Below, in pieces: positions 13,601 through 63,347 of a stretch of DNA of 64,000 nucleotides. Under the pieces are notes generated by a model. That model was not told the origin of the DNA and made no database searches. It worked only from the letters and a program-made list of their open reading frames with translations. The DNA is from Aplysia californica. Taxonomy: Eukaryota. The stretch is taken from assembly GCF_000002075.1 (NCBI RefSeq), contig NW_004797308.1, positions 240,342 through 304,341 on the forward strand, written 5' to 3'. Position 1 is the first letter of the stretch; each line of letters starts with the position of its first letter. The translations under genes and the position numbers were made by a program.

Positions 13601-16600
13601 CAGGTAAGTAATGTTAGGGATTTCAGGACTTTCCTGAAAGATATGGTACAAATTTATCTCTTGTAAAATACGCATTGAATAAAATGGCAACTAGAGCACA
13701 CTTTGGGATTTTTATTTGAAAAGATCTTCTTGACTTGCTCTCATCATCAATGTAATTTGGTATTTTTTTCTGTTGGCTTAATGGTTTGTGCATTGCTCCT
13801 TTACAAAATTTTCTTTAAATCTTTTAAAAATGTCGTCCCCTCATACAAAAAAATCCCCATGTTTGTTTTAAATGCTATCCATTAACTCTAATAACTGTAT
13901 CCAGTGGCCCCTAAATTAACCTTCTTGCCTGTAGTACAGAGTAACATTGATATGTGAATACAACTTTCAATCAACTTTCATGTGTTTTGTATGCCTTACA
14001 CAGTATCAGTGGAGACTGACACCACAGAGAGTGTCTGTCAACGTGAGATTGTTGTCAAGGAGATCGCCTCAGAATATCATCTTGTTGTGGAACCAAAGAA
14101 CTGTACAGAGTGTGTTGACTTAGGTTCCTGTGCTGAAAGCCAAAATAAAAAAAGATGTACTTTTTCATTCAGTACTGTTTCATACCTCAAAGACTTTTAC
14201 AAGCTGTGTTTTGATGCTGCCCAGCAAGACTTGGACAAATGTGCATGTCCCCGTTCTGTGAAGAAAAAGAAACGGCAATCTTGTGGTCCACAGATCTTAT
14301 TTAAGGAGAAAGAGTCTGGGCACGATTCTTTGGAATCTGAGGACAGACATCGTGGAGTAAGTTGAGCCTTATCTTTTATGTTTTCAATACAAAACAAAAG
14401 TGGCTTTATAGATCTGTTTTCTTCCCTCTGTGTAATATTATATCATGTCAGGAAATACACAATGTTAACTTCTCTGGAATGGCGATGCATTTATGGGTCT
14501 ATCTCCACCTCTTCATTCGTGTAGTTCTTACGTCAGACTGAAATTTCTTACATTTTTGCTGAGCAATACATCAGTTTTGATTTTTCAAGGAATAAAGTTT
14601 AGCGTGCCAATGCCACAGTTTACCAGAAAAAAGAAAGGTGATCATACAGCATGTGTTCTAGGCAAATCCAAACAGTTGGACCGAACTGGTAATTTTGAAT
14701 CAATTTCATTTTTTATTTCTTAATATTTCAGTACAGTACGTTTTTGTTTTTTTATCTCCACCCACCAAGACTTTATAGAAAAGTGTAGAAGTTTTGGGGT
14801 AAATGAAAAGTCTTATTTCATTTTTTTTGTTGCATTCTATTTCATGTAATATAGATCAAGAGTAAGAATTTTTTAGCAGGACAAGAAATTAATTAAATGG
14901 GAGAGGCGACCTTCAAGGTCTATTTTTTATGATTGTTGCCCGAGATCAAATATAAGTCTAGCATCTGCATTTGTCACGGCAGCGATTTTTGGCCTTTTTT
15001 GATCCGCGAATCGCGGCCACGATTTTTGTTTTTTTTTCAACAAAAAACACCGCCGGGAAGAAAAAATAAATTAAAAACAACAACAAAAACTAGGAATAAA
15101 ATTCGTGGGAAAAAAAAAAGAAACCAAACCTCTTTACTTTAAGAAAGAAATTTTATTTTCACTTTCGTTTCACTTCGTCTCTTTCTCACTTGTTAACACT
15201 ACGTTGATTTGTAATTTTCATGTGAAGAATATAAGTAGGCGACATTACATACTATTTATATTGCTGTTTCTCTTTCATGTTTCCCTCTTTGTTGAGTTTT
15301 ATTTTGTTGGGGTGTTCATTTCTTTTTCTCTTTATTGTTCCGATGTGTTGTTTTTCCTTTTTTGTGTGTGTGTGTTTATATAGTGTAATGTTCTTCCCAT
15401 CTTTGAAAAAAAATGTGTTATAGTTGTGTTGCAGCGTGTCTCCACAAAAAACGAATACTGACACTGGTAGGCCTCATGTGTGTGATTCCAGAATTTACAT
15501 CTAATATCCTGTGCTTTTTCTTGAATAATATTACCCACGTTTAGTGTTAAAACGGCCAGTCTAAGGATGGGTTGTTGACACACGCCCTTATTTGTTAATT
15601 TTTGTGGTTGTTTATTTGCAGTTTTAATTTTGATTTCATTCTGTTGTGATACCTTTATTGTTCACGTTTTTACACTCTGTGTGTGGGTGGTTGTCGGGTG
15701 CTCTGATGTGGTGTGCTTCTTCTTTCCTGTTAAACATCTATCATCCTTATCTCCCCTTCTTTTTTTATGTTTGTTACTCTCTTGTAACATCTCTAATCTT
15801 CTGGCGCTCATATGACCTTTAACAATTGCGAGCGCCGTAAAACCCCTACTAAAACTACTAAGCTAAAAAATTAATGGCAACTTTTTTGGGCAACTTTTGC
15901 CATTTTTGTGGCAACTTTTGGACAAAAAAAATGGCAACAAATACAGATGCTAGATAAGTACACATATAAGTTAGGCATAGAAAAATCTCTTGATACATAC
16001 TTTTATTTTTGCATTGCTACAACGGTTGCTATGGAAATTGCCGCCATCTTGAAAATAAACAGTAAATTTCAAGTCCCTAAGGCTTTAATTCTTATTTACT
16101 GACAAAATTTGTCCAAATTTAGTGAGAGTATATTTGAACCAGTCCCTATCAACGTAAGAGACAGTATTGTTATGGAAGTGTTAAAGAAAAAAACAACAAT
16201 TTTCCCGTTGTATATAATAATCTATATAATATAAATCTTTTCAAAATTTTGGTTGCCTAATCGCTTGCCAACGGAAAACCATTATTTTTTTTAGCAAATA
16301 TCTCTCTGTTATGTTAATGGCAGCTTTGCCATCTATGTTTCCTGAAATTTTCACGTCAAAAGGATGAAAACTGAGGAACGAGCCGGGGACAAACTGCAGA
16401 AAAAAAGACATTTTGAGAAAAACGAAAGTTATTGTAAAAATTCACATTTTAACCCACCCTCATGTTTTCAAAGGCAATTTACGATGAGCTATTTTTAGAC
16501 AAAGAACTGGTTGACTTTAAAAAATCAACCAACATCTTAATTTGCATAGTTTGACACAAAATTGGCCAATCTGAGGGTCGCTCCTTCCGTTAACTCGCTG

Positions 16601-19600
16601 CACAGTGGCTGAACAAATAAATTGTGATGCTTTTAGAGTTTGGTATGAAAGAAAAGAGGTCATTTTTTGATGAAATGGTGTACATGTCTGTAAGTCTACG
16701 GCTACAAATGTTTAAAAAAAATAAAATTATAGTTGCTGCAAACTTAACTATTATGTCTTAGGTTTACTCAAGGAGGATATATAGTAAGGTCCGTGGTTTT
16801 ACCCCAAGTTGACAAAATTTCTAGTGCCAAGGTGAAGTTTACTCTTGCTCAATAATTAATTCTTTGATTTTACTGTTTAATATAAGATTTTTACAAAGAA
16901 GGCTATTTGTCAAATTAATTTTAAAATACCTTTAAGTACCACTCATTTGCTTTTCTGGAGGTGTTGGGTGCTTGGCACATGGCAATGTTTCTCTTTTGTG
17001 ATCAGTAGCCTGGACAGTGCTTTTGTTAATTCTTTATCATTCATGGATGAAATATTATTTTACTATTTCTTTCTTTACTTCTTCTCACTAATCAGTAATT
17101 CCTGTCATTGTTATTGAAACTATTCTGGGACTGTAAAGTAAATTTTAAAATGAAGTGTTTGTGTTTTTACGCCACCATCGACACAATTTAAATCATTTAG
17201 GAGGTTAGCTTCCTACCCTGCCTGTCAGGGCCAACCCAGGTACAACACCCCAGTAGAAAGACAGAGATTTTCCATTAAAAAATTTCCCCACTTGGGAATT
17301 TAACTCGGGTCTCCTGAGTGCAACAGCAAAACACCTAGCTACTACTCCAGAAACGTCAGTCTTTGGATTTAAGGACCACTGATCTGTCAGGATGACAGTT
17401 TAAACAATTCAACTTTTTCGATTGGAAAGTACTAAAATTATACAAAATATTGTGAGCGTTTTATTCTGGGGAAGGGGGAGGGGGGAATTATTTGGCTTTG
17501 AAATGTTGGTTAAGGAAAGGACATACTATAACAGAAAAACGGAACTCATTCATAATGTAATTCTTCTCTCTCTCCCCTCAGGCCTTAACATGTGCAAGAA
17601 GAAAGGGCCCGTCCAAATGTGTCTCCATAGATGGAGGCAGTCTGTCTATGGTGTACAAGGGTGGAGACTTTTGTGGAGTAAGCGGCTTTACCAAAGTGTA
17701 CTTAATGCCGGACGAGAGAAATTTGTGTAAGTAGAATTGTCAGGCTGTACAAATTTGTGGGTAGTAATAGAGAGGTATAATAGTCAACTAACTGCGGAGA
17801 ACAAATATTAATAAAAATTATAATGATAATAATAGTAATAATATAATGATGATAATAGTAATGATAAAACTTTGGCTTCACTTGCAACTTTAAGCAGATA
17901 CATTCATGTTTACGATTTGTACTTCAGTACTGGAAAAGTTTCAGTGAGCAAACTATAAAAGAAACTTTAGTGTAAAAGGTCTCATCTTCATGACTAAACT
18001 GGCGATAAAGAGAATTTGCCTCGTGGCACAAGCTAGATCACTCTTATAAGTGGAAAGATGAATAGCTTTGTTACTCTTCCTACACTAACATCTATTTTTT
18101 TATAATCAGGCCCATGGCCTGGCTCGTACTGAGTTACTTCCGTCCTGCCTGGTAATTAGGCTACATGTGACCTTAACTCTTTGGCTACCAAGGCATTTTC
18201 CACGCTGTGACCAAGGCATTTCTTAGTCTTAGAATTTCAGAAGTACCCCTGTTCTTCTTTTGTGTCTGATGGGCATAATTCCATCTGGAAGTCAGACATG
18301 TTATATACCAAAATGAAGCTAATTGAATGTAGAATATTTTCAATCTAATAAAAAAAAATTGAAAAAAATCATAAATCCAAACAAACATGGGAGAGCTGCT
18401 AAATCCAATCACTTCATGACTTGGTCATACTGAAGTATATCCAATTGTCTCTAACTGGGCCAAGTTTCATGCACAATGGTCAAGTATATAAAAAGTTGTC
18501 GCACTTTTGGTGAAATCACTCACAATGAAAAAAAGAGGAAAAAAACGCTGCACACACGCCCCTCTTTGCGAATCTTCATTCTCATCGCTGTCGCTGGTGT
18601 CCGACTCGGGTCGAACTTCATCACCTTCTACATCACTATCCGAAAGTATTGACAGTTCCTCATCAAACTTTTCCAGGGCTTTTGAAGCAGAAAAACGTTG
18701 TGACGGGGGGGGGGGGAACCTGATGGGTTATCAGCCATTTTGCCGTTGCTATGCGTGTAAACTAATTCGAGCAACACAGGGCGGGTCAAAAAAACATGAA
18801 AAAATGCCCCCAAAATAGCGGAATAAAACACAAAAGGCGCTAAATTCCTTCACTGCTTGACTGATGTATGGTAAGCAGAGCAGTTAAAAACATGAAATGG
18901 GAAGGTTGAGTCAAATTGTGGAAGGGAAAGGGAAAGAAAAGCGCGAACTGATAATTCGGCTCTTGGCCAGGAACTAGGAAGTTATGGAGCCCATAGATCG
19001 GCTCATGGTAGTCAAAGAGTTAAGACTTTCTTTGTTAGGTCCCTGTCCTTGATACTAAATAGCTCTACATTAGTCTTACTCTCAGCTGCTCCTGAGGAAG
19101 CCTACTTTTCGAAACGTCAGGCCAATTCAATAAACCAAATTTTATAAACATTTTTTATTTATAAAAAAAATAAATTTTTGTCTTCCAATCAATCAAGACT
19201 CTCCCTACCGACTCAGATTTTTAAACGATGACCAAAACTGGAAGTGTAACAAGCACAGCATCAACAGAGCTAAGCTTGAGAAAACTGGGGACAGATGGTT
19301 GAAAATTGCAACTTATCGATAAAGGAAATAAAAGAAATAAAATAGATAAAATGAATAAGTTATATTGTATTTATCCCCGTGGGGGAAATTTGAGTTACAC
19401 TGGCAAACATACATACATAAATGCATAATTAGAAATACATACATACATAAATATATCGGTACATACTTACATAAAAATAAACAATATTACACCAATACAG
19501 AACATTTTCAAAAACATGCCATTGCTGGTCGTCACTGTGTAGCACCCTGTTTTTTTTAACTAGGGTTGTCATGTCTTGCTCAAGGACACACATCAGTGAT

Positions 19601-22600: not shown

Positions 22601-25600
22601 AGAGTGACCACAAAGTGTTAAATACACTGTTGGTTTCATTAAATCAGTGTGACTAGTATGAATATGTAGCCATTTGTTTTTTGTCCACATACTGTATTTT
22701 TTATCGTTTTACTTGACTAAGTTGAAGAATTAGTGAAAAAAGTGTATCATGACAAGTTGCCTCTCTCAAACAAATTTATCGAATGATATCTCTAGGCGTT
22801 GGTGGCCTAGTGGTTAGGCTCTCGGACTCGCAACCGTAAGGTCGTGGGTTCGAATCCCGTCAGGGACCCGACGTTGTGTCCTTGGGAAAGGCACTTTACA
22901 CGAATTTTCCTCACTTCACCCAGGTGGGAATGGGTACCCGGCTATAGACAGCGAAAGATCTTGTCAGTTTGTTAGTGTTTGAGCGCTTAATCAGCTGCTT
23001 GCACTGTATGCTTCCCGGGAAGCTGAGAATGTTTCGGAATGTTCTATGGTCTGCTGGGGTAATAATATAATGTAAAGCGCATAGAGCCTGCTGTTGAGCG
23101 GGGAATATGCGCTATACAAATGCTATTTATTATTATTTTTTATTATTTCTTCAAGAAAACAGCTTGTACCAATTGTAAGGGAATTTTGTTTACTTTTGTT
23201 GTTTATGGATTTTGTTGATATTTGTAGATTTCTCATTTCTTGTTTTGTGGGGGTTTTTTTGTTCCCCAGATGATTTGAGCAACTGGAGACGTTGCAATAT
23301 ATATACAAGTGGGGGCAAGGCCAAAGGAGTTCTTGTGTCGCAGCTTAGTCGTGGACTTGATGGCTTTCCTGAGCGGTGTTACAGGATGTTACATTCCCCC
23401 TGGTCTTCCAATAGCAAAAGTGGACAGTTTTGTTTCACCTTTGTTCATGCAGATTTTGTGCCACAGGGAGCAACACTTATGATACGCCATCTGTACTCTT
23501 TTGAATCCAGGTACCTACGTATAGTCGAAGTGATCCAATATGGTCGCCTATCATTGATGGGAAAAGTGATTATCTTAGACAGGTGGATGCTTTGGACAGT
23601 GTCATTATAGTAATAATATAGAAAAAACCAAAGGGATGAAGTAGGAAGTAGTCATTTTCACTGGCAATTGTCTTAAACAGGTCTTCAACCTGTTAGCGCA
23701 GGTTCAACAGTGTTTGTTTTTTAGGACATTGTAATTATTCAGGCTGTTTGCATGACTGTACATAATCTTAACATTTCCACTACCCGTGGTGTCAAAGTAT
23801 TTTGTGACACTGCTTATCTGTAATTTTTGTTCCTGGTACTCTATGCACTTCACATCCCAGTTTGATGCTCTGAGCTTGGCACCTTCTATAATGCCTACAT
23901 GTATGTCAGGTCTTCAGGTGATATAAACTGGGAGTAATCATGGCCTCAAGACGTCCTTTTTGTAAAGCAGTGATGTGGACTTTACAAAAGTAAAAGCGAA
24001 AGCCTCCTGTCAGTTTCATAAGCTGCATAGTTATGAAGAATAAAAATAATTTAGCTGTTCTTCTATTCTGTAGGTTTAGACATTGCTAATTTTGTCCTTT
24101 TAGATATAAAAAGTATTGAACCTGATGAACTTAATAACTTCTGTTAGACAGGCCACACATGATGTCTTTGCTCCTGACTTTATTCTTTTTATTTTTTTTA
24201 TGGCTAAAAAATGAAGTACCCATCTTTTTTAAACTCCAGGCATCATTTGAGGATTAAGATTTGTATTATTATATATTGTAAAAGCGTATTTCACTTTTTT
24301 CAGTAATAGTTTTGTGCTCTAAACTGCAAGGTTTATTATTATATTTTTGCGATGTACTTTACAGCATTTATTTGTATCAGGGCGTACAGGCATTGTCAGG
24401 TCTTCCCCTTAAGTAATGTTGCACAGTTTTTTCTGGGCCATTAGAGGTCATTTTGGTGTCCATGTCACTACTACTACAGTGAAACTAGTAGTATGATAAT
24501 ATTAGGGTTCCCTGCTACAGAATACCTTTCTTTTATAAGTCTTTCCAAGAAATTTCTAATAATATACACACTTATGTACTCTGCTTGTGCGAGTTTGAGT
24601 CAGTATATATGTTACAGTAAGAATGTGTACCTAGTGAATACGCGTAATCACTGAATATTTCAGTGAAAACGCGTAATCCCTGTTTCACTCGGAGATTTCA
24701 CGTAATCACTAAAATAATCAGGAATTACGTGAAATCTCTGAAAAATGGTCATGGTAATTACGCGTAATCCCTGATCAGACATGTGTAGTATAATATACGT
24801 TTGTAAAAGTTTATTCCTTAAAAAGTCANNNNNNNNNNNNNNNNNNNNNNNNNNNNNNNNNNNNNNNNNNNNNNNNNNNNNNNNNNNNNNNNNNNNNNNN
24901 NNNNNNNNNNNNNNNNNNNNNNNNNNNNNNNNNNNNNNNNNNNNNNNNNNNNNNNNNNNNNNNNNNNNNNNNNNNNNNNNNNNNNNNNNNNNNNNNNNNN
25001 NNNNNNNNNNNNNNNNNNNNNNNNNNNNNNNNNNNNNNNNNNNNTAAGCGTTTAAAAATTCTAAAAAATGATCAGGCACATACAAAATTGTATTGCTTGA
25101 NNNNNNNNNNNNNNNNNNNNNNNNNNNNNNNNNNNNNNNNNNNNNNNNNNNNNNNNNNNNNNNNNNNNNNNNNNNNNNNNNNNNNNNNNNNNNNNNNNNN
25201 NNNNNNNNNNNNNNNNNNNNNNNNNNNNNNNNNNNNNNAACAAAGCATTTAATTTTTTTAAATGGCAGACACCATTGTTGTTGTTGTTGTTGTTTCAGTT
25301 TTCAGTTAAATACTTAAGACTAAAATCCATCCAGGTCGTCACTTGTTACAACAATTGAGGCTGCTATGACAGTGTAAGTTACACCTAAGACCTGCTTTAC
25401 GGCATTTACATCGCCTTGAACTACAGTTTTTGGCACCAGTACAGTTGCATCTTATGAAGCCTTGTTCACCTGGAGAGGATTGAAATATCACCGCCGAACG
25501 CAGTGAAACTATTTTTTCGGTGTTTATGTCGTCAGTGTTCAGAAGATGCTAAGGGCACAGATCGAAATTATTTCTGGAATACAAACCACTGAGAATACCA

Positions 25601-28600
25601 GCTTTTACGGCTATCTTATATTTGTCCGTGTCTTCTCGTCTGTCAATTATGACACCAAGGATATTTCTAGCATCGCCTCTCCCTCGATCAACAAGTGGAA
25701 CTGGCTTACACACGTTGTCTCCTTGTTTGCCAGCTGACATATCTATGTTACAGTAAGAACACGTAGATCAATCTAGTTAATACGCGTAAACACTGAATAT
25801 TTCAGTGAAAACGCGTAATCCCTGTACAGTGGCGGGGGGCTATTACGTGAATTCACTGAATGCTCAGTAGTAAAAACACGTAAAATGATAGGTCTCATTT
25901 TAGGGATTTCGCTTAATCGCTAGAAATTTCAGTGATTACGTGAAACCCCTGAGTGAAACGGGGATTACGTGTATTCACTAAAATATTCAGTGATTACGCG
26001 TATTCACTAGGTACGCATTCTTACTGTAACATATACAAACTGTGTGCCACATGTACATCTAGATATTATTTTAAACCCCAGTACTACAAACAGAACATTC
26101 ATCTCTTATGGTGAACAATTTTTTTAAATCTTTGGTTTTGAATCAGATATAACCCAATGGATCAAATCTCTGCTATCCACACTCAAGTAAAAAAATATCT
26201 CTTCAGCTGAGGTAATAGCATTTCACTCTTAAATAAAATATTTTCACCTTCTTCTTCATAGCTTTTCCAGTAGTCTGACATTGCTTCTCGGACCTCTCTC
26301 AAATAAAACACTCAATTTCTTGCCATTCTAGCTGTCAATAAAAAAAACCTCTTGTCAGACTACAGTGGGACTATTGTTTTGTAGAGCTACCGGGACCATG
26401 AATTCTAAACCACTTTTACAAGTTGGTTTTCAAGCCTTACTTCTCAGGGCTATGCAGTTTTATCCATCTTAACTGAATTATCCTTCTTCTTGACATAAAC
26501 AGGAATTTCAGCTCCGAAAACCGTCCAACCATTGGTGAAGAGTACTGTTTAAAATGGAACTTCTACAATAGGATTGCGATCATCGTACGACCCAGATTTG
26601 GTGGAGATGCAGACCATCAGTACAAGCACACATTTGTACTCAGATATGAATTCAAAGGTAGTTTCAACTTGGTAGTTTCTTGCCTCAAATATTTGGTTTT
26701 AAAAAGAATCTGTCTTTTATTTCTTTTGTTTCTTTTTCTTTTTCTCTTTTTAACTCTTTATATCTCCAGCAAGCTGCTCCCAGCGGCTCGCCATCAGAAC
26801 CACTGTGCCGGTGAGCTGCTTACTTAAATTAGGCTCGGGCGCATTTTATGAAGACTTCATCGTCAAATTACTTTCCGACAATTAACAAAAACTAGTCTCT
26901 TTGTCCAGGAGATCATTCATTACATGAAGAACTATCAAAATGGGTTCACTTTTTTATTTTAATGACCCATTTAGTGACATAGTGTGTCAATTTTATATTT
27001 CGTTCCGGCATAGTGGGTTCCCCCCACGGAGATAAATAGTTAACTTTATTGAACCAATGTAGATTTTGCAGTGTTCCTCTTAAAGCAATGTACTGTTCTG
27101 AAAGTCAGAATCACATTCATCAACTGTTCTTTTTTGCTTATCGTCGCTGCAGGATTCTGAAGGGCTAACTCGGTTTCTGTAAGTTTTACGGGAAACTGAA
27201 AAAACTAAAAAGCAAGGCTATTATACACATTTTAGCTGATTAGAATCCAAAGTTTTGGATAGGTAAATCTGGCTGAAAGTTATTTATTGAATGTGTTGTG
27301 TGTGGTCAGTGAGAATTCAGAGAAAGAACGGAAAATGCATTTTCAAGAGTTAGTTGTTTGGAATCCTGCAGTGATGAAAAAGAAAAGTTGCCCAAAAAAG
27401 GAGAGCGAAAGTGTACGTATAATCATAAAAGCCCAAATTTACCCTTTCACATTTCCATTTGTTGATGTAAGATTCTACGTAGGAATAAGATTTACTTTTG
27501 CAGCATTAAAACTTGCAACCAGTACTTTTAGACCTTTTGTTCTGTTAAATTATGAAGAAGAAAATAGTGTGTGCTATTCATTTCTTGTGGATTAGGCTCA
27601 TTTGAGGACATGTTTGAAATGGATGGCTCTTTTGGAAGACTCACTACAGATAAATGTTAATCCATCAGCTCTATGTTGGTAAAGCTGACACTTCTGTGCA
27701 TTTAATTCTTTGACACATGTTTGTGTCAAATTTACAACAGCCAAAAAACTTCAGTGGCTGTCTATTGAAATGGTATTCCTATGTAATTTGAACAGTAATT
27801 GACAAGTGATTTTCTTGCAGTGACAAAGATGTTAAGTGAAACTTTGTGGTTTTATGAACATGTTTCCAGCTTTCTTTTTTTCGTAATATTTTCATGTCAA
27901 ATATTGTTAAAGTGAAGCACATATAAAAATATTAGCAAACTATGTTAAAGTTTTATGCTCACATGAGATACTAAAATAAAGCAAAGAGATTAGGTTTGTA
28001 CTGCAGTTTAAGAGATGCTACTACTTGAAAATACTATTGTCGCATAATAAATCCTTTAAGAAATTTTATTGGGTCCTTGGCAGCAAGTCACATATATGCA
28101 TGTTTGTTAACCTAGACATCCTCAACACCACAATTACTAGAGAAAGCAGCATTTGTCCAAAGATGAGGCTTATTGATGTTAACTTCTATATATAATATGT
28201 TGAATTATGGATTTTGTTCTGGACTTTTTCAATAATTGAGATTTAAATACGGACAAATTATTTCTTGAGCACAGGCAATAGATTCTACAGATTAAGAAAC
28301 TGAAATTTAAAACAATTTTCAACATTTTGAGAGTAGTACATCTGAACAACTGACCAATGATAAATAACATTATAGGCCTAGTAAATAAGTTTTGAATTGG
28401 ACCTTTTGCACAGGCACATATGTGAGGAGTAGGTAATGTCAGTGAAAACGTACAATTGTCTTTTCTACTTTGCAGCTGAAAAGAAACGTGACAAAGTGAC
28501 AACTTCATCTGGTGGCGACAATGAGGAAGAAGAAGAGGATGACGATGGTCCATCCACCCTGCTTATTGCTGTCTATGTGTTTGCACCAGTCGCATGCATT

Positions 28601-29887
28601 GTTTTTGTAAGGATGATGTGGTGTTATTGTTCTCAGAAAGCAAGAAATGTGGAATCACATTCCAGTGATTGTGAAGGTAATACAATTTAGCATTAAATTG
28701 CACTTTTTGTAATTTCATAATTTTTGTCAGTATCTTCAAAGCACAAACGGGATATTTTTAAGAAGGATAAAACGTACTTAACCAATTTGGGACTGATGTA
28801 TGATGAAGTTTGAAATTTCCTTTCTATGATTCCAGGGGAAGAAAGGAAAATGAATATGTTAACCATAATAAAGGAATGACGTATCTGTGACTAACTGTGA
28901 ATTATTCTGCGATATGTTATGATAGACATTTCTTCTATAATACAAAGTATTGCTTTTTCTTCTTAGAATCTTAGTGGCACAGTTTCTTTGTTAACTGTCA
29001 TACATAAAAAAAAAAAAAGTATTTGAGTCCACTTAACAGCAAAATATTTGAACCAAATTATGGTGGCTCTTTGACTTAAAAGATACAGTGCTTACTTCTT
29101 TTCCTTGCCTATTTGGATGTACCTATTATGAGCAGATAGTGTAGAATACTACATTTTTCTCATTTATCAATTCTCATCTCTAGTGTGTGTTGAGGATAAA
29201 GCATCTTACTGAGAGGAAATTGATAAAGACATACATATCTTTATTGACAAAAAGTATTTTGTATTTTAAAAAGTTTACATATTTCTTTGGTACCATTTAA
29301 ATGATAACCTGCCCCTTTATAATAAATTATAATTTTATTATATTTGACTAGTTTCAATTTTTAAAATTTAGTCAGGAATATTATGCTTGAACTGAATTGT
29401 ATATTAGTTGTTCTTCTTCCTGCTTCCAGACGGCTTGGCACTGAGAGATCCACCCCGATCTAATTACAATGATGAGGACACCAGGCTCTCTGCCTACGGA
29501 CGACATCAGAGTGATTCAAGTGACTCTTCCAGTGATGTTTCCATTACAGGCAGACCTCGGCCGGACACCCCACCACCTCCACAGCCATCTTCAAGAGGGA
29601 TAAGAACATCCCGTCCCGCGTCACCATCGACACGGACTGCAACAAGAAGTACAGCTAGACTTGAGCCTTCTGCACCATTAGAACCGGCCTCTTCTTCATC
29701 TCTTCCTCCATCATATGAGCAGGTGATGCATAGAAGAGGAAGTGAACTCGAGAGCCGCACACCTCCTGTCACGCCCAGTGTTGGTCCTGCTCCAGATGGT
29801 GAGGAGACTGAAAATCTCCCCCTTAATGCGGAGGAGAGTGTGCCCCCTCCTCCAGCTTATAGTTCTCTTTTCCCAGACCAGACCTGA
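10550..29887 (+). CDS. Gene A: uncharacterised single-pass type I membrane protein (signal peptide, 2 divergent CUB-like domains, acidic stalk, TM, PSAP/PPxY tail); join(10550-10640,14004-14356,17582-17726,23270-23510,26503-26657,28476-28676,29430-29887), 547 aa
   Basis: Seven exons joined by GT-AG introns of phases 1,0,1,2,1,1 give an uninterrupted 1644-nt frame from ATG 10550 to TGA 29887. The domain order is coherent, and the last five exons have homologues in gene B. Confidence 0.88.
11066..11325 (+). mobile_element. Full-length tRNA-derived SINE with 13-bp TSD
   Basis: A box tggccgagcagtt, B box ggttcgagtc, central aatgggtacctgac, (acttt)n tail; TSD tacgaaaaggaac at 11053-11065 and 11326-11338. 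Confidence 0.92.
11596..13185. mobile_element. Chapaev-like (CMC superfamily) non-autonomous DNA transposon
   Basis: CACGGCG...CGCCGTG termini, 4-bp TSD ACAT, GC-rich imperfect subterminal inverted repeats, no transposase ORF. Confidence 0.8.
14004..14356 (+). CDS. Gene A coding exon 2: first half of CUB-like domain 1 (VSVETDTTESVCQRE...RHRG)
   Basis: ttacacag acceptor and GGA|gtaagt donor, 353 nt, phase 1 to 0, Cys-rich; lies within ORF 13982-14365. Confidence 0.87.
14958..15953. mobile_element. Non-autonomous TIR DNA element (CTAG termini, 6-bp TSD ATAAGT), copy 2
   Basis: Colinear with 3385-4377; exact TSD ataagt on both sides. Confidence 0.9.
17155..17350 (-). mobile_element. Short tRNA-derived SINE family (other copies ~36370-36565 and ~49577-49780)
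   Basis: Three copies share gacacaattt...ccctgcctg(t/c)ca.ggccaa, with a reverse-strand tRNA-like B box at the right end. Confidence 0.7.
17582..17726 (+). CDS. Gene A coding exon 3 (ALTCARRKGPSKCVSIDGGSLSMVYKGGDFCGVSGFTKVYLMPDERNL)
   Basis: Long pyrimidine tract plus ctcag acceptor, T|gtaagt donor, 145 nt, phase 0 to 1. It is in a different frame from the listed ORF and matches the 145-nt gene B exon. Confidence 0.88.
18177..18882 (-). mobile_element. piggyBac-derived non-autonomous element with acidic transposase N-terminal relic
   Basis: TTAA flanks with imperfect TIRs; the minus strand reads RFSASKALEKFDEELSILSDSDVEGDE...SDSDENEDS. Confidence 0.5.
21250..21950 (-). mobile_element. Degenerate Tc1/mariner-superfamily transposase fragment
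   Basis: Minus-strand WFQQDGA motif (~21455-21475) and a SLDLNP..FF motif resembling SPDLNPLDFFLWG (~21330-21370). Confidence 0.65.
22796..23145 (+). mobile_element. Full-length tRNA-derived SINE with CORE-like centre and L2-like 3' tail
   Basis: tggcctagtggtt and ggttcgaatccc boxes; tgtgtccttgggaaaggcactt...aatgggtacc; tail tgtaaagcgc...gcgctatacaaat(tta)n. Confidence 0.92.
23270..23510 (+). CDS. Gene A coding exon 4: first half of CUB-like domain 2 (YDLSNWRRC...FCFTFVHADF...ESR)
   Basis: ttccccag acceptor, CAG|gtacct donor, 241 nt, phase 1 to 2; homologous to the 241-nt gene B exon. Confidence 0.88.
24610..26031 (-). mobile_element. Ginger2-type DNA transposon, deleted/composite copy
   Basis: TGT...ACA termini with long TIRs and TATA TSD. 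Minus-strand 25740-25340 encodes PLVDRGRGDARNILGV...YSRNNF...GFIRCNC...CSSRRCKCRKAGLRCNLHCH...CCNK, typical of the KRBA2/SCAND3-like integrase C-terminus. Confidence 0.85.
26503..26657 (+). CDS. Gene A coding exon 5 (NFSSENRPTIGEEYC...YKHTFVLRYEFK)
   Basis: aaacag acceptor, AAG|gtagtt donor, 155 nt, phase 2 to 1; absent from the ORF track; clear homology to gene B 55065-54905. Confidence 0.88.
26754..27039. mobile_element. piggyBac-like MITE (TTAA TSD), copy 1
   Basis: ttaa|ctcttta..tctcc ... ggagataaatag|ttaa; similar to 57035-57294. Confidence 0.75.
28476..28676 (+). CDS. Gene A coding exon 6: acidic stalk, TM helix (LLIAVYVFAPVACIVFV) and juxtamembrane WCYC
   Basis: tttgcag acceptor, AAG|gtaata donor, phase 1 to 1. 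Confidence 0.9.
29430..29887 (+). CDS. Gene A last coding exon: Pro/Ser-rich cytoplasmic tail with PSAP, PPSY and PPAY
   Basis: cttccag acceptor, open frame to TGA, ends VPPPPAYSSLFPDQT. Confidence 0.9.
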
Positions 29888-53330: not shown

Positions 53331-53701
53331 CTATTTTTTATCAGGGAACAAATCAGAGTATACTGGGGGAGGGGGAACTTGTGATGGAGGCAGAACTGAG
53401 CTGCTTTGGTCATTCAGATCTGTGACATCATTAAGAGGAGGAGCAGACGCATGAGATGGTCCAGCCTCTGGCTCTTCAACCGTCAGCTTGTCAGAACGTG
53501 AGTTTGACCGCGGACAGGCTATTGCTACTTCCACAGTTGTGTCTGCTGCCGAAGGTTCTACTAGCTGGTTGACGCTGGTATCTGCTGTGGTGTTGAGGGG
53601 TGTATCCATCGCAGCAGACTGTGTGGCATTGTAGGATACAAGTGGTGTTTGACTTGCTAATGGATCTCTGTTGTAGAAAGGTCGCATTTGCGCACTGTTA
53701 C
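53331..53701 (-). CDS. Gene B last coding exon: cytoplasmic tail ending VPPPPVYSDLFPDKK
   Basis: ttttgtag acceptor, open frame to stop, terminal motif nearly identical to gene A. Confidence 0.9.
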
Positions 53702-56700
53702 CTACAAAACAAAAAACAAAAATGTACTCTCAGGTATCTGGAAAATATTAGTCTCAGTCTGCCTTGATTAAATTAAGCGAAGACAAAATCATTTTTGACT
53801 TTACAGGCCTGTTGTGACAATTTTAAAAAAATTGTATAAGAAAATTTGTCATGAAGTGCTTAAGTAAACAGAGTAAAATCATGATTTTAGAATCTACTTA
53901 TCCACATCCATTGCAAATCAAGTTATAATAACAAGCAACCAAGAAAACGGCTGAGAAAAACAGACCATGCCATATCAAGTAGCAAGAAAAGTAGTGTGCA
54001 TGACACACTGTATTTTTTACTTTTTTAATGCCTTACTGTAAAACTTTCCCAAACCAGGGCACTAAGTACTCCAGTCAGACATTTATAGGAAATGTGTTTG
54101 AGGTGACGAGCAAAAGACTCCCCTCAAATTAAAAACTGGAATTTCACTGAGCCTGTCACAATCAGAAGGCACAAAATGTATAAGAGAAATGAAAAAATTT
54201 AAGCTATACTAACCTCCTTTTCTGTTGGAAGTATTATCTCCCTCACGGGAGTACCTCTTAGTAAGGCTGCCTTTGCCTTTTATACACATGTAATAAATAA
54301 TGAACAGAATGAACAGAAAAGTCAACACAGCCACAATGATGATTTTTGTAACCAAGCCATCACTGTCGTCTTCATCTGCATCAACATCCTCTTTTTCACC
54401 AGGGTAGCTTGATTTAGGGTAGTCTGGGTTCCGATTATAATTCCTTTTCGTCACTGAAAACAAATATCACAGGCAAAAGAGAAACATCAAAATCAAGAAA
54501 ACTACAATGGAGAGCAGGAAACTATAAACCACAAAGAGCAATTACAATTAGCAATTATTAGAACAGTAATAACCTAGAACTTCTTTTTAAAAACTATAAG
54601 GTCTAAGACAGCAAAGATATCATTTCTCTCTAAAAATAGGTGTAAGAGTGAAAATTAAAGATATTCACTTTCTTCATTTGATCTGAAGAGCCCTAGAAAG
54701 TAAATGCGCCTACAACTGGAGACACTCCAACTTTAGAATCAGCAAGAGATGACAGAGAGACATTTTGTGAGTCCTTGAGAACTCCCAAAACATATCACTC
54801 TTCCAAACTACACACCATGCTCTAGACAGGTGACAAAACATTTCCTTTTCATTCTTCATTGTAAACAAAGGTTTTCAAAAAAGTAGGGAAGGGAAAAATC
54901 ATACCATTGAAGCTATACTTGAGAAGAAATGAGTGACGGTAGCCATTTCCTTCACACTTCTGGCTGTTCTTACAAGGCTTTATTTTTAACTCTGCTTCTG
55001 TGAAGCCCAAGATAAGTATACAGTACTCCTTTCCAACGTTTGGTTTCGACGTGTGGTTGAATTCTCTGTCAGTTCATAAGAGAGAAAAAATTAATTCAAT
55101 TCCTTTAACACTGATAAAAAAAGGCTGAAATTATAATGCAATGATACGTAAAAATTAGTTGCATTGCAGGTTGAAGATCAAGCAGTCGACTATCCCTGAG
55201 GTTTAGCTGGGGAATGAAAAGAAAGAAGAAGACAAGGCTCATTTTATGGGTGCCTTTTGCTATAAATTCAATATTTCCGTTCCAGAGTCACATGTTATAG
55301 TACTATTGTTTTCTTACAAGTTAATTACTTGTTGAATGATTGGTTTACCTTTCACTATCTACCAAATATGGTGGAAAAGAAGTGGCCACAAATCAATGAG
55401 ACCACAGAGTTCTGCCCACAAAGCCAAGTAAGAGCTGGTGGTTCAAATGGGGTCAGGGACTAAAAAGCAAGAGGAGACAATTTATTTACAGGCTCAGGTG
55501 TGAACCGAAGTATATGATGTGCGTCCAACAAGCTGGGGCAAAGGCCGACCTGCTTGACAGGAAAATCAAAGTCAGACAAAGAACCAGAAAGAAATGAGGC
55601 AAGACATAAAAAACTTTCCTACAATAGGAACATAATCAGCATATTCGTGGCCAGGAGCCCATACTTAAATCATGCCATGACCTGATAATAAGGCTGTAAA
55701 AAGTTACATTTTAATAGTTAGCTTACATTATAATCAAAGCTTGTGACTGCCAATGAGAGAGGCCTGAAAGGGGTGAAAGATGTATTTATGCGCCAATAAA
55801 ACAGTTTTGAGAGTTGTGGACACTGCTCTTTGGTGATTTCATGAACGTTCATAAGGCTTACATGATCTATGGGTGAATTTGACTGCGATATATTCCCAAA
55901 ATTAAAGAAGGGAAGCAGTGATATTTGATAATATAGATGCTTCACCCCTGTCAACAAGAAGATACATATTGCTAGCAGCATGATTCAACGGAAGTGACGA
56001 AATTTTCGAAAATCACTTTTTGATCCATTTATGTAGTACAGCCTTTTGATACACCTAATGTTAAAATCCCGAATTTGAAAGATTACTGCAAAGTGTTTTC
56101 AATCCTTCAGTAAATCAATTGCCTATATCACACAGGTCCCCAATTTCCATGTGATTCAACCGCCCAAGTGCCAGTTTTGCAGCAGCCGGTTGAGGTGTTC
56201 ACCTGTCGTGTTGGCGGCGTGACCCACACGACTGTGGCCTTTGTCAAAACAGACTAAGGATAATATCAAAACAACCTTTGCTAACCTTGACTCAGATCAA
56301 ACCTTATCAATAGCCAGAAGATTTTGTCAAGGCAGTTTGCTTAATTTATAACGAGGTTTGGTAGTGTAGTTGAGAAAGGGCAAGATGGCATCAATTAATA
56401 TATGTTAATACTGACTCTACCATGTTGGTAAATTGTGGCACAAGCTACTGACTCATGGATTTTTAAAAAGTGTATGATTGACAGCTAAGGGGCGCTTATT
56501 TCACATTCGGTACAACAGCTGGAAAATATTTTTATCATAATTTTTCATGCTTCTTAATTTACTTTAAGAGTGCGCCCCTTGCTGTGTCCGTCAGGTAGCA
56601 TTCTTGAATCATTGATTAGTTAGCCAGTGTTGGGTAGATGATGTTTAATTTGTCACTCGAAAAAAAAAAAGCAACTCATTAACATATCCGCCCTGAAAAT

Positions 56701-59700
56701 TCTCTCTTCTACAAACCTTCAACTTCAACTCTCAAGCTCTACTCTTCAATTTGAAACAAATCTCATACAATCTACCTATATGCAAAATGATAAGTTTGAA
56801 TACAACTGCCCTCACACAGTGGTTATTTCTGACTTTTAATATTGCAACGACAGTTTACGTGACTTAGAGATGGGAGCTGCACGACTGTCATATTAGCGGA
56901 GAGCAGAAAAGAACAAGCCATTCTGTGTAAGTAATTCTTCGACAAACTTAACAAAATTGCTTTCCCATTGCTACAGACAGAATATTGGCAAAATCTATCT
57001 TGACTATCACTTTCAAAGTCTCAGAGCCCTTTACCTCTTTATCTCCAGCAAGCCGCTCCCAGCGGCTCACAGTCAGAACATTCCTTTATGACGACTTCAA
57101 CATCAAATTACTTTTCGGCAATTGCAGAAAACAGGTTTCTTTTACCGGACGTTCATTCATTTGATGAAGTACTATCATAATAGGTTCGCTAGTTTAGATT
57201 TAATGACCCATTTAGTGACGTTTTTTTCCATTTTAGAATTAGTACCAAAAAAGGGCCCTGGCGTAGTGGGTTTACCCCCATCAGAGATAAAGAGTTACAG
57301 AGAGTACCAAAGAAACCTGAAAGAGTCACTTAGAGAGAGATATTAAAAAGTAGCAACCTGTTGCTGTATGTGTCAGAAGGATCAATGTGATGTAAGCAAG
57401 GTAGGAGAAAGAATCTAACATGAAGCTTGCACAAAACCAAGTGGATGGGACCAGGACTTGAAGCGGATTTACTGTTAGTATGGCGTTGAATGAATTTGGT
57501 GCACTATAACATAACAGGACCAAATAAGCTGTCTATTTTTTTTTTAACTTGGTAAGCAAAGATGTGAAGTGTCATGTTTGGCACCAAGGAGAAGGATCAT
57601 TGATTGCCAATGAAATCTCTTCTTGTGTCAGTAACTTCCTGGAGGATCCTGCAGATGCTAATTAATACGCCCCGTTCATTATATACAGAGATGGCTGTAC
57701 TTATCAGACCACAACGCTATCTTGCCAAATGCAATCAGTGACATTTGTACCAGATAGAGCAAAATTGGTGAACACCAATACTTTGAAAAAGAGAAAATGC
57801 AAATGGAAGTGGATAGCACACACAGTGTAATTGAAAAATGGTCTGGTCAATGTGCTCATGGATAATCTTGAAAGTTTTTAAGAAAACAAGACAATATCAC
57901 CCCCCCCCCCCCCCTTCCCCTTTGATGTTCGGTTTCTGGACCATTCAGACCACACTGAAACAAAAACGACCCTGTTGTCACACACAAACGTTTGTTGCCT
58001 TTGATACACACTGAACAAAAACAAATTGAATGTTAAGGTGAATGGTCTTTTTTAACGACTCCATGAGGCTCAAAACAGTCCTGCCTCATATGGCCCAACC
58101 AAATAACTGAAATAATTACTCTTAACTTTATAATTACTCTTACATTCATTATGATTTTCTTTAGTCAATAACTCAAACAACCAAGTAATCATTGGCACTC
58201 ATCTGGTGACGTTGATTAAAGTGATTCAAACACCTAGATGCTGTCATACTGTCACTTAAGTGGTTGAATCACGCAGATTTTGGTAGGTCTAAACCGCCTA
58301 GGTCCAGTAACTTATGTAAGAAAGTTTTTGTTTTTTTAAAGTTAGTTACAGACCAGCATCCTACATCATATATCTGAATTTCAGCTTCATAGGCACGAGT
58401 ATAAAGAAATAAAACAGTTTTTTGCTTCTCCTGAAAAATTTGTCTCTTGGCACTTAGGCAGTTGAATCACGCAGTCATGGACAATGATAATTTTAAAACA
58501 TAATGAAGGGTTATTGGTAGGTACATTCATAGAATCTTAATTGAGGAAAATGTTAACAAAAGTAATATGGTACCATAAGAAACGAACTTCTAATACCAGA
58601 CCAAGGACAGCATACATCTATCCAGATTTCACATCATAATCACATCATAACAAAAACAAACAGAGACCTCCTCAAGTAACTAGCCCCAACAATGTTTTAT
58701 TCACTTGTTGTACTGCATCTTCTAATCTCCCCAGAACATGTTGGACTGTACCAAAGAGTCTACATAACAAGAGGGGCCACTTCTCTCTTTGAGCCAATTA
58801 AAAAAGTGTCCTCAAAATTCGGTGGCTCCCTCTTCGCAAAAGCGCACCTTTAACGAACAGAGTTTTCCTACTTGAGTTTAAAAAATCAAAGTGAAACTAG
58901 CAAGTTTTTGAATTAATTTCGGAAGAACGCTTTTTTAAAATGGTTACGCTGACAAAAAAACCTCTTCCGGAGGAAAGGGTGATTGTTTTCTTCGTTTAAT
59001 TTGACTTTAGAATGAAAGGCGAGAGGTCATTAAAATTTAAAAAAAATAAAACTCCGCACTGAACGAACCCGAACTGCTGATGAACAGCAGTCGATCTGCG
59101 CACGCAAGGAGGTGCTATTCCTATTCTTCTTCTGGAAAAACGAAAGAGAGCTTCAAAACAGACTGCAGCGCCATCTGAAGCAAAGAGCATACTTCCTGCG
59201 GACACTTTTTTGGCTGAGTGGCCCATCTTGTTATTTACTATCTTTGACTGTACACCATATTGGCCATTACCTTTGCGGTTCCTGCAGACTTACCTTTGGC
59301 CATATAATGCAGAGGGTTCAACAAGAAGCCCAGCACCACCAACAGGGAAATGTGCACTGAGAAATGTGAAACAGATCCTTGCCACATCATCCATAAGAGA
59401 AATAAAGTGAGCCACTGTGAGATTACAGAAAGAAGGACTGTCAAGCTGTTCCATCTCGCCATAATGTGACATGACCATTCCACTTTTTGACCGTATCAAA
59501 CGTATGCCTTTTGAACACTTGTCTCTCAACGAAACTGAAACAATACGAAGACAAAAAAACAAAACTTAGAGAACATTCAGCAAGAGTAGCACAAATGCTT
59601 ATCAGATATTGTAATAGGTTTTGAATCCAGACTTGTCAATAAAAAAAAGTCACTCCCATTCTACATATTGCAACCTAATTTATAATGAATTCTTGAATTC

Positions 59701-62700: not shown

Positions 62701-63347
62701 TAGGAGAGGCGAAAAATGTTTTTACATTATTGTTATTCGTTCCCAACCAAATGCGGTAAGCCATCAAGGGCCTAGGAGATTTAATCGGCCTGTGAGAGGC
62801 CAGGGGGGAGTCCTCACCTCATGCCCACACCAGGGTGGGAGCTATTCTCATCGGGGGAGGGGGGGGAATAGCGAAACATGGGTTATTCTCACCCGGGGTG
62901 AGAATAAAGGTGGCCTATGAATATTGCTTTAGGAAGCGTTAACCCTTACAGCTGTGGGCTATTTGTAGCCCTACTTTCCTATGTAGAAAGAAGCATTGTG
63001 AGAGTTGAATTCCTTTTTTCTAACTTGCTTCTTTCACAGTCAGGGTAAAGAATGATTGAAACACCCCTCAAGACTAAATACAGTCAAAATATATAAGCAG
63101 GAGAGAGAAAACAACATGGAAACAATAAAAAAGTAAAAAAGAGAACAGATACTAAAGCAATGTAAACTCATGAGAAAATAAGTAAAATCATAATTTACTT
63201 ACTGGCCTCTTTCCGTTTTTTTTCTACAGTGATTGTGGCAGAGCTGTTTACTTGACAAAAGTCATGGTTCTTGAACGTTAGTACAATTCCACCATCCTCA
63301 GTGCATGTCTTTGTGGGTTGACCAAGTTCGCTGGGACAAATTGGAGG
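53331..63347 (-). CDS. Gene B (5'-partial): paralogue of gene A; complement join(63347-63203,59534-59294,55065-54905,54453-54214,53701-53331), 385 aa visible
   Basis: Five exons with GT-AG introns of phases 1,2,1,1 (same as gene A) give one open frame to the stop at 53331. Cys and motif conservation with A is visible in each exon. Confidence 0.88.
54214..54453 (-). CDS. Gene B stalk and TM exon (EDVDADEDDSDG-LVTKIIIVAVLTFLFILFIIYYMC)
   Basis: ttttcag acceptor, GAG|gttagt donor, phase 1 to 1, strong hydrophobic helix. Confidence 0.9.
54905..55065 (-). CDS. Gene B exon (EFNHTSKPNVGKEYC...YRHSFLLKYSFN), homologue of A 26503-26657
   Basis: ctgacag acceptor, ATG|gtatga donor, 161 nt, phase 2 to 1; not in the ORF track. 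Confidence 0.88.
55978..58474 (+). mobile_element. Decayed Sola1-like DNA transposon
   Basis: Terminal inverted motifs (c)atgattcaac / gttgaatcacg, two at each end. 57570-57840 reads VWHQGEG..ANEISSC...DGCTYQ..N...QMEVDSTHSVIE with frameshifts. Confidence 0.7.
57035..57294. mobile_element. piggyBac-like MITE copy 2, TTAC-flanked, nested in the Sola1-like element
   Basis: ttac|ctctttatctc ... gagataaagag|ttac. Confidence 0.75.
58767..59231. mobile_element. TA-flanked MITE copy 2 (inverted relative to 38433-38890)
   Basis: ta|acaagaggggccact ... agtggcccatcttgt|ta. Confidence 0.85.
59294..59534 (-). CDS. Gene B exon (ISLRDKC...ICFTFLSAHFPVGGAGLLV...GQR), homologue of A 23270-23510
   Basis: tgtttcag acceptor, AAG|gtaagt donor, 241 nt, phase 1 to 2. 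Confidence 0.88.
60454..61173. mobile_element. Kolobok-like non-autonomous element (TTAA TSD, GG...CC termini), nested
   Basis: ttaa|ggg...gctacacc and ggtgtagcccacccc|ttaa; the host element sequence resumes after it. Confidence 0.72.
62118..62907. mobile_element. Unclassified repeat with palindromic termini, copy 2
   Basis: Both ends carry the hairpin ttattctcac-ccgg(g)-gtgagaataa within a ~35-bp TIR; the body matches 9236-10190. Confidence 0.75.
63203..63347 (-). CDS. Gene B exon (PPICPSELGQPTKTCTEDGGIVLTFKNHDFCQVNSSATITVEKKRKEA), homologue of A 17582-17726
   Basis: tttttatag acceptor, CCA|gtaagt donor, 145 nt, phase 0 to 1; shares C, G, DGG, K and DFCxV with A. Confidence 0.87.

What the first reader, a model, noticed from the sequence alone, without database searches (positions are those of the whole stretch)
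29666..29887. Gene A tail combines PSAP with two PPxY motifs, a 'late domain' set
Seen: LEPSAPLE (PSAP 29666-29677), LPPSYEQV (PPSY 29705-29716) and VPPPPAYSSLF (PPAY 29849-29860); both tyrosines are also in YxxPhi context. Established: P(S/T)AP binds the TSG101 UEV domain (ESCRT-I), PPxY binds NEDD4-family WW domains, and the pair occurs in ARRDC1, LITAF/SIMPLE and viral Gag/VP40. Inference: this could be a cargo receptor linking an extracellular ligand to ubiquitin/ESCRT-dependent lysosomal sorting or vesicle budding, rather than a kinase-type signalling receptor.
Basis: partly seen in the sequence, partly recalled or inferred. Interest (0 to 1): 0.7.

Follow-up and report, generated by a model that had tools for sequence, protein, structure and literature searches.

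The report
Sea-slug CUB receptor with ubiquitin-ligase tail
The three short motifs are real and sit in the inside tail of a spliced sea-slug membrane protein; its family of eight genes always keeps an end motif that likely recruits ubiquitin ligases to send membrane cargo to lysosomes, while the PSAP motif proposed to recruit the vesicle-budding machinery is found in only three of the eight tails.

Summary
Observation confirmed. PSAP, PPSY and PPAY lie in the last exon of a seven-exon gene equal to Aplysia californica LOC101853762 (547 aa: signal peptide, two predicted CUB-like domains, one transmembrane helix, 174-aa tail). The last two splices show in contigs of 3 of 4 runs laid. No orthologue outside Aplysia was found, so I tested paralogues: five tandem genes (23-27% identical to gene A) and three on other contigs. 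A terminal PPxYxx(L/V)F is kept in 8 of 8 long tails; P(S/T)AP occurs in 3 of 8, and reads PSAP, PSAP, PSPP, PWAP at one alignable site in four related tails. PSAP alone arises in 6% of shuffled tails. The YxxPhi context matches the known extended PY motif and is not separate evidence for AP-2. Aplysia has WW-HECT ligase genes and a TSG101 with 12 of 15 PTAP-contact residues kept. Best reading: a lineage-specific PY-motif membrane adaptor/receptor that likely recruits NEDD4-family ligases for endolysosomal sorting, like Commissureless/PRRG4; PSAP is an optional, unproven extra. Binding, cargo and vesicle release are untested. A new domain arrangement of a known kind; modest interest.

The parts
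10550..10640 (+). Gene A coding exon 1: hydrophobic N-terminus, predicted signal peptide (second ATG at 10586)
   Evidence: matches P0001 residues 1-30
14004..14356 (+). Gene A exon 2: first part of CUB-like domain 1
   Evidence: one contig of run X5 covers it at record 268-621; AG/GT ends; fold
17582..17726 (+). Gene A exon 3: end of CUB-like domain 1
   Evidence: its 145 nt fill the 145-nt gap in the X5 contig (record 622-766); equals P0001 149-196
23270..23510 (+). Gene A exon 4: first part of CUB-like domain 2
   Evidence: X5 contig record 767-1008; VIA Z 9-11 to CUB domains
26503..26657 (+). Gene A exon 5: end of CUB-like domain 2
   Evidence: spliced in contigs of X5, X4, X19
28476..28676 (+). 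Gene A exon 6: acidic stalk, transmembrane helix, juxtamembrane WCYCSQK (the only tail lysine; cysteines are palmitoylation candidates, inferred)
   Evidence: joints; hydropathy; helix H355-387 in the model
29430..29887 (+). Gene A exon 7: Pro/Ser-rich tail, predicted disordered, with stop codon
   Evidence: pLDDT under 50 for residues 404-531
29666..29677 (+). PSAP (context RLEPSAPLEP; P0001 475-478): candidate TSG101 UEV site, not kept in most paralogues
29705..29725 (+). PPSYEQV (P0001 488-494): internal extended PY motif, like PRRG4 LPSYEQAV and Comm LPSYDEAL
29849..29872 (+). PPAYSSLF (P0001 536-543): terminal extended PY motif, the family-wide conserved element
   Evidence: 8 of 8 long tails
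53334..53702 (-). Paralogue gene B (P0003) last exon: terminal PPVYSDLF, no P(S/T)AP (it has EPSAA and ASAPP)
54212..54454 (-). Gene B transmembrane exon
54906..55067 (-). Gene B CUB-like domain 2 exon (second part)
59293..59532 (-). Gene B CUB-like domain 2 exon (first part)
63204..63347 (-). Gene B CUB-like domain 1 exon (second part); the gene begins beyond the window end

Best explanation
Gene A is a spliced single-pass membrane protein of an eight-gene Aplysia family, with two predicted CUB-like domains outside and PY motifs in its tail, that likely recruits NEDD4-family ubiquitin ligases to sort itself or a bound membrane partner to endosomes and lysosomes. Shown: gene structure, motifs, a terminal PPxYxx(L/V)F kept in every long-tailed paralogue, and WW-HECT ligase and TSG101 genes in the genome. 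Predicted: the CUB-like folds. Inferred: (1) the fast-diverging ectodomain binds a ligand or neighbouring membrane protein; (2) the two PY motifs engage tandem WW domains and activate the ligase; (3) because the tail has one lysine in 174 residues, ubiquitin would fall mainly on the partner, so the protein would act as an adaptor; (4) the PSAP would add a direct ESCRT-I contact in this paralogue only (about 40% likely to be functional) and is not the family's core mechanism.
For: Terminal PPxYxx(L/V)F in 8 of 8 long tails, although gene A's tandem paralogues are only 23-27% identical to it; chance of PPxY in all 5 cluster tails 4e-7 if independent. All 7 PPxY in the five cluster tails are followed by a hydrophobic residue at Y+3, the extended PY form that binds NEDD4 ligases in ENaC (passage of PMC2582799) and in Comm/PRRG4 (passages of PMC5578492). 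Four contigs carry WW exons upstream of HECT exons on the same strand (C283, C413, C460, C510). Comm works as a PY-dependent Nedd4 substrate adapter for Robo1 (abstract of PMC12101832). Tail K:R is 1:17 against 27:22 in the ectodomain (Fisher p 0.0002). Domain 2 matches CUB folds at Z 9.1-10.9, rmsd 2.6-3.3 A over about 105-113 residues; domain 1 matches CUB models at TM 0.52-0.62 in 9 of 10 rows.
Against: No binding, localisation or cargo data. PPxY also binds non-ligase WW proteins (MAGI binds PRRG4; YAP-type proteins, recalled). The lysine deficit is confounded by a GC-richer last exon (0.53 against 0.41-0.45) and is not shared by P0008 (8 tail lysines) or gene B (6). Paralogues share ancestry, so the 4e-7 figure overstates independence. 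One annotated member (P0006) has a 20-aa tail with no motif. The fold model is middling (mean pLDDT 59.9, pTM 0.50), and there is no sequence-level CUB match.
Confidence: 0.6

Rival explanations
1. One reading: PSAP and PPxY work together as a viral-style late-domain set, so the protein recruits TSG101 directly and drives its own entry into intraluminal vesicles or budding microvesicles, like ARRDC1, SIMPLE or SCAMP3.
For: Combination rare in shuffles (0.00023). Context RLEPSAPLEP has E at -4 and +2 as in HIV-1 PEPTAPPEE, and resembles phage-display binder GRVVEPSAPPWEGP; positions +2/+3 are key for tight binding (PMC11670305 passages). Two other paralogues have PSAPP(M/L)EES and one of them also PTAP; P of at least 2 of 5 cluster tails carrying P(S/T)AP is 0.018. 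Aplysia TSG101 keeps 12 of 15 listed contact residues. A lysine-poor tail would suit ubiquitin-independent ESCRT entry.
Against: P(S/T)AP is absent from 5 of 8 tails and changed to PSPP and PWAP in 2 of 4 alignable tails while the terminal PY stays. PSAP alone arises in 6% of shuffles. Gene A lacks the +1 proline found in the HIV, Ebola and phage-display ligands. Three lysine-poor tails (P0002, C182, C260) have no PSAP. Aplysia TSG101 differs at T96, P139 and P145.
Confidence: 0.2
2. Signalling or scaffolding co-receptor: the CUB-like pair binds a ligand or channel (as neuropilin, Kremen or NETO/SOL proteins do), and the PY motifs only set the receptor's own turnover or bind non-ligase WW scaffolds.
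For: The best fold matches are ligand-binding co-receptors (Kremen Z 10.9; neuropilin a1a2 and cubilin CUB pairs align over both domains). A large disulfide-rich ectodomain (11 invariant ectodomain cysteines) is more than Comm-type adaptors carry.
Against: A shared fold shows no function. The only tail feature kept across the family is the PY motif. No tail ended in an [ST]-x-[LIV] PDZ-type sequence among the six proteins tested.
Confidence: 0.13
3. Immune recognition cluster: a tandem array of divergent single-pass receptors under pathogen-driven selection, like the Biomphalaria polymorphic transmembrane clusters, with tails that internalise bound ligand.
For: Five tandem, highly diverged paralogues and no detectable relative outside Aplysia; PTC1/PTC2 are clusters of diverse transmembrane genes (passages of PMC10875847).
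Against: Allelic difference is low: 1 difference in 354 nt and 0 in 242 nt of ectodomain exons in one contig, and 0 in 156 nt of exon 5 in three contigs. No homology to PTC genes was tested or found; 'CUB' does not occur in that paper's main text.
Confidence: 0.07

Closest known systems
Commissureless / PRRG4 / Shisa-like PY-motif transmembrane adaptors (PMC5578492 passages, PMC12101832 abstract)
   Same: Single transmembrane helix; poorly conserved tail with two PY motifs; the internal PPSYEQVM resembles PRRG4 LPSYEQAV and Comm LPSYDEAL.
   Different: No Gla or Shisa Cys-rich ectodomain; two CUB-like domains instead. No Pfam match for P0001; gene B's Comm hit is 12.4 bits against a cut-off of 27 and covers only the transmembrane region.
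ARRDC1, SIMPLE/LITAF, SCAMP3 (PMC3667717 and PMC9882979 passages)
   Same: One P(S/T)AP plus PPxY motif(s) in one cytosolic segment; SCAMP3 is an integral membrane protein with both.
   Different: No arrestin, LITAF or SCAMP domain; type I topology with an ectodomain; PSAP in only 3 of 8 family tails.
SUSD6-TMEM127-WWP2 complex (PMC12720080 and 10.64898/2026.06.29.735340, search listing and start of abstract only)
   Same: Membrane adaptors with PY motifs bring a NEDD4-family ligase to a surface protein for lysosomal degradation.
   Different: No sequence relation tested; no co-adaptor or substrate is known here.
CUB-domain type I receptors (neuropilin, Kremen, cubilin; NETO/SOL and CDCP1 recalled)
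   Same: CUB-like beta-sandwich fold, here predicted as a tandem pair.
   Different: No Pfam CUB match and no profile alignment to canonical CUBs; no room for LDLa, FV/VIII, MAM or kringle domains; tail dominated by PY motifs.

Membership tests
PY-motif single-pass NEDD4 adaptors (Comm/PRRG/Shisa-like functional class) | One transmembrane helix with PY motifs on the cytoplasmic side | tested here: met
   (cytoplasmic side inferred from the N-terminal signal-like stretch)
PY-motif single-pass NEDD4 adaptors (Comm/PRRG/Shisa-like functional class) | PY motif conserved while the rest of the tail diverges | tested here: met
   8 of 8 long paralogue tails; orthologues not found
PY-motif single-pass NEDD4 adaptors (Comm/PRRG/Shisa-like functional class) | WW-HECT ligases present in the organism | tested here: met
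   WW and HECT exons co-located on C283, C413, C460, C510; gene models not assembled
PY-motif single-pass NEDD4 adaptors (Comm/PRRG/Shisa-like functional class) | PY-dependent ligase binding and down-regulation of a partner protein | not testable with these tools
   needs pull-down and trafficking assays
Commissureless / PRRG / Shisa protein families (by descent) | Family domain (Comm, Gla, Shisa Cys-rich) | tested here: not met
   0 Pfam families for P0001 at E up to 5; only sub-threshold, mostly transmembrane-region hits in 5 paralogues
PSAP+PPxY ESCRT-recruiting proteins (ARRDC1, SIMPLE/LITAF, SCAMP3; viral late domains) | P(S/T)AP and PPxY in one cytosolic segment | tested here: met
PSAP+PPxY ESCRT-recruiting proteins (ARRDC1, SIMPLE/LITAF, SCAMP3; viral late domains) | P(S/T)AP conserved among homologues | tested here: inconclusive
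   3 of 8 paralogue tails; PSAP, PSAP, PSPP, PWAP at one alignable site; gene A's own site cannot be aligned to the others; no orthologues
PSAP+PPxY ESCRT-recruiting proteins (ARRDC1, SIMPLE/LITAF, SCAMP3; viral late domains) | TSG101 with an intact PTAP pocket in the organism | tested here: met
   Y63, Y68, N69, I70, T92, S94, M95, K98, V141, F142, S143, R144 kept; T96, P139, P145 differ; D34 not checked (residue list)
PSAP+PPxY ESCRT-recruiting proteins (ARRDC1, SIMPLE/LITAF, SCAMP3; viral late domains) | PSAP-dependent TSG101 binding and vesicle release | not testable with these tools
   whole Aplysia UEV domain is split over exons and was not available as one protein
CUB domain | Sequence match to Pfam CUB | tested here: not met
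   the family's contigs are absent from the 83 genomic CUB hits; hhalign probability 0.4%
CUB domain | CUB beta-sandwich fold, domain 2 (residues about 195-331) | tested here: met
   VIA Z 10.9 Kremen, 9.7 GPR126, 9.6 C1s CUB2, 9.6 meteorin; rmsd 2.6-3.1 A over 105-113 residues; predicted model
CUB domain | CUB fold, domain 1 (residues about 30-195) | tested here: inconclusive
   Atlas TM 0.52-0.62 to CUB parts in 9 of 10 rows, all under the naming bar; aligns with tandem CUB pairs over 205-213 residues at high rmsd; not folded alone
CUB domain | Calcium-binding acidic triad | tested here: inconclusive
   no alignment to canonical CUBs obtained; by eye the E..C.YD loop (recalled consensus) is replaced by a short loop in all six aligned proteins
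Biomphalaria-type polymorphic transmembrane cluster | Very high allelic diversity in ectodomains | tested here: inconclusive
   0-1 differences per ectodomain exon in 1-3 contigs; too few individuals, and contigs drop variants

The most novel reading that the evidence does not exclude
A lineage-specific family of CUB-CUB receptors evolves its trafficking fate by gain and loss of a TSG101 site on top of a fixed NEDD4 site: PSAP-bearing, lysine-poor paralogues such as gene A capture an extracellular ligand and bud with it into extracellular vesicles, while PSAP-less paralogues send cargo to lysosomes.
Probability: 0.08. Interest if true: 0.65.

Novelty: new variant of a known kind. Interest (0 to 1): 0.3.

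Why it matters
PY-motif membrane adaptors set surface levels of receptors and channels (Comm-Robo is the model case). An undescribed eight-gene family that joins PY tails to tandem CUB-like ectodomains in Aplysia, a standard neurobiology animal, would be a candidate for ligand- or partner-selective receptor removal, and its paralogues with and without PSAP form a natural comparison of PY-only against PY-plus-PSAP sorting. The motif logic itself is well known and nothing functional is shown, so the interest is modest.

Tried and rejected
Orthologue search: exon 2 against longer proteins gave only P0001 (1 of 31 candidates). phmmer over 1.84 billion representatives gave 7 hits: six Aplysia family members and one bacterial repeat protein (P0007), dropped as a low-complexity match to the tail. 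Profile searches with A1 and A3 returned one protein each and missed known paralogues, so their blanks are weak. Absence of orthologues is therefore not shown. Pfam, PDB sequence searches and hhalign to three Aplysia canonical CUBs gave no significant match. Genome-wide base rate for overlapping P(S/T)APPxY codons: 58 matches (10 from one tandem repeat) against 53 for a permuted pattern and 49 and 52 for reversed controls; no enrichment, dominated by chance; of 30 loci read, two (L107, L112) look coding by eye, unverified. Raw RNA runs X21-X23 had depth near or under 1 on the exon bins that are free of repeats, which says nothing about where the gene is expressed; no listed holder is on record as RNA. 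AP-2 YxxPhi as independent evidence: rejected, since the same residues form the extended PY motif. The open frame at window 62077-62358 is not a gene B exon. No complex was predicted: WW-PPxY is a textbook pair, and the whole UEV domain was not available as one protein. Earlier findings: none returned. Literature: 0 papers name LOC101853762; 0 papers held 5 of 6 terms for a CUB/PPxY membrane E3 adaptor; the 6 papers listed do not appear from their titles and abstract openings to concern this family. Supplements were not read and subscription journals are not covered.
Full report
Observation. The three motifs are at the stated places in one open frame ending at 29887: PSAP 29666-29677, PPSY 29705-29716, PPAY 29849-29860; both tyrosines are followed by a hydrophobic residue at +3. 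In 200,000 shuffles of the 174-residue tail, P(S/T)AP appears in 6.2%, two PPxY in 0.48% and the whole set in 0.023% (post hoc). PSAP alone is therefore weak evidence; the PY pair is stronger.

The gene. Contigs of 3 of 4 runs laid on the 3' part (X5, X4, X19; three studies) skip 26658-28475 and 28677-29429 at GT-AG ends; the raw-read run X23 was too shallow. One 1964-nt contig of X5 also covers exons 14004-14356 and 23270-23510 with a 145-nt gap that equals exon 17582-17726; these 5' splices are inferred from record coordinates, not listed joints. The seven-exon model equals stored protein P0001, named by its source as Aplysia californica uncharacterized LOC101853762, 547 aa. It has an N-terminal hydrophobic stretch, a cysteine-rich ectodomain, one transmembrane stretch and a Pro/Ser-rich tail predicted disordered. 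There is no kinase or other Pfam domain.

Ectodomain. The AlphaFold2 model from six sequences is middling (pLDDT 59.9, pTM 0.50). Residues about 195-331 match CUB domains of Kremen (Z 10.9), GPR126 (9.7), C1s (9.6), meteorin (9.6), neuropilin, spermadhesin, TSG-6 and PCPE-1 (9.0-9.1) at rmsd 2.6-3.3 A. Foldseek's first two rows are neuropilin-2 and cubilin, but with low TM-scores and many SID-1 rows. Residues 30-195 match CUB parts of predicted models at TM 0.52-0.62 in 9 of 10 rows, all under the Atlas naming bar. No sequence-level CUB match exists. I call both domains CUB-like by fold, the second more securely than the first.

Family. No relative outside Aplysia was found (the last two missed known paralogues and are weak). 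Inside the genome there are five tandem genes on the window's contig (P0002, P0008, gene A, gene B on the minus strand of this window, P0009) and three more ectodomain loci on C36, C182 and C260; searches with P0003 and P0002 added none. Gene A is 22-27% identical to the other five aligned proteins. Eight long tail exons were found. The C260 tail follows a second transmembrane exon 18 kb beyond P0006's, and its link to an ectodomain is not shown; P0006 as annotated has a 20-residue tail without motifs and is not among the eight.

Motif conservation. All 8 tails have PPxYxx(L/V)F at or near the end. All 7 PPxY in the five cluster tails have a hydrophobic residue at Y+3. P(S/T)AP is in 3 of 8: gene A (RLEPSAPLEP), P0009 (RYPSAPPMEES) and C36 (RCPSAPPLEES and RPTAPRW). 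Four tails align at 49-66% identity; at the homologous site they read PSAP, PSAP, PSPP and PWAP while PPxYxSLFPD is invariant. Gene A's PSAP cannot be aligned to that site. The chance that at least 2 of the 5 cluster tails carry P(S/T)AP is 0.018: suggestive, not decisive.

Partners. Aplysia TSG101 exons on C147 keep Y63, Y68, N69, I70, T92, S94, M95, K98, V141, F142, S143 and R144, and differ at T96, P139 and P145 (contact residues from passages of PMC11670305). That paper gives +2/+3 as key flanks; gene A has E at -4 and +2 like HIV-1 PEPTAPPEE but lacks the +1 proline. Four contigs carry WW exons upstream of HECT exons, consistent with NEDD4-family ligases. Presence of partners makes binding possible but does not show it.

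YxxPhi. The extended PY motif PPxYxxL is the NEDD4 site of ENaC (one passage of PMC2582799), and gene A's PPSYEQVM resembles PRRG4 GLPSYEQAV and Comm GLPSYDEAL (passages of PMC5578492). The hydrophobic residue is thus expected from WW binding alone and is not separate evidence for AP-2, though dual use is possible.

Lysines. The tail has 1 K and 17 R against 27 K and 22 R outside (p 0.0002). This fits an adaptor that brings the ligase to a partner rather than a substrate, but the exon is GC-richer (0.53) and two paralogues have 6 and 8 tail lysines, so it is weak support.

Mechanism. Most likely (0.6) the protein is a PY-motif membrane adaptor or endocytic receptor: the CUB-like pair binds a ligand or membrane partner (inferred), the PY motifs bind WW domains of a NEDD4-family ligase (inferred from conservation and known specificity), and ubiquitination leads to ESCRT sorting and lysosomal removal (established pathway; Comm-Robo1 in the abstract of PMC12101832). 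The PSAP may add a direct TSG101 contact in this paralogue (about 40%). The full late-domain reading, with PSAP-driven vesicle entry as the main job, gets 0.2; a co-receptor whose PY motifs only set its turnover 0.13; an immune cluster 0.07, since ectodomain exons showed 0-1 allelic differences in the few contigs seen.

Comparison and novelty. PSAP with PPxY is known in SIMPLE/LITAF and ARRDC1 (passages of PMC3667717) and in the membrane protein SCAMP3 (passages of PMC9882979). PY-bearing membrane adaptors are a known class (SUSD6/TMEM127 from the search listing only). Gene A belongs to none of these families by descent. What appears undescribed is the arrangement, CUB-like pair plus transmembrane helix plus PY tail, as an eight-gene family: no paper in the held library names the locus and none held 5 of 6 terms for such an adaptor. 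Verdict: real feature, interpretation partly supported, new variant of a known kind, interest 0.3.

Noticed in passing
G000:C38:179796-342436 (includes the window): Tandem cluster of five paralogues with the same exon layout; gene B is inverted relative to the other four.
   Followed up: yes
G000:C260:28120-29691 (L061): A second transmembrane exon and a PY-tail exon lie 18 kb beyond P0006's transmembrane exon with no family ectodomain exons found between (N runs intervene); either alternative 3' ends giving short- and long-tailed isoforms, or a partial duplicate.
   Followed up: partly
G000:C38:354458-354724 (L027): Extra copy of P0009's transmembrane exon downstream of the cluster, with no tail exon found.
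   Followed up: partly
G000:C36:895705-895818 (L050): The terminal PPAYDSLFPD stretch is duplicated just behind the stop codon.
   Followed up: no
window 14261-14275: Basic KKKKR within an insertion of about 14 residues found only in gene A's domain 1; possible cleavage or glycan-binding loop, untested.
   Followed up: no
window 28595-28639; P0009 residues about 340-350: Juxtamembrane cysteines (WCYC in gene A; a run of eight cysteines in P0009, similar in C36 and C182), candidate palmitoylation sites.
   Followed up: no
P0009, C182, C36, C260 tail exons: A conserved PVFVHP(T/S)QS...YQT block and a [ST]AP-x(1-3)-[WY] element in four tails; PPAW replaces PPxY in two.
   Followed up: no
window 344-730, 5390-6569 and 33081-33482 (minus strand): Fragments that look like non-LTR retrotransposon reverse transcriptase and RNase H by eye.
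   Followed up: no
window about 34900-35400 (plus strand): Degenerate stretch that looks like a mariner-type transposase by eye.
   Followed up: no
window 15760-15860, 22800-23100, 26910-26950: Short high-copy repeats with very high read depth from many other loci.
   Followed up: no
L107 (G000:C147:1030527) and L112 (G000:C210:39640): Open frames with overlapping P(S/T)APPxY in a coding-looking context; L107 has a second PPSY seven residues on.
   Followed up: no
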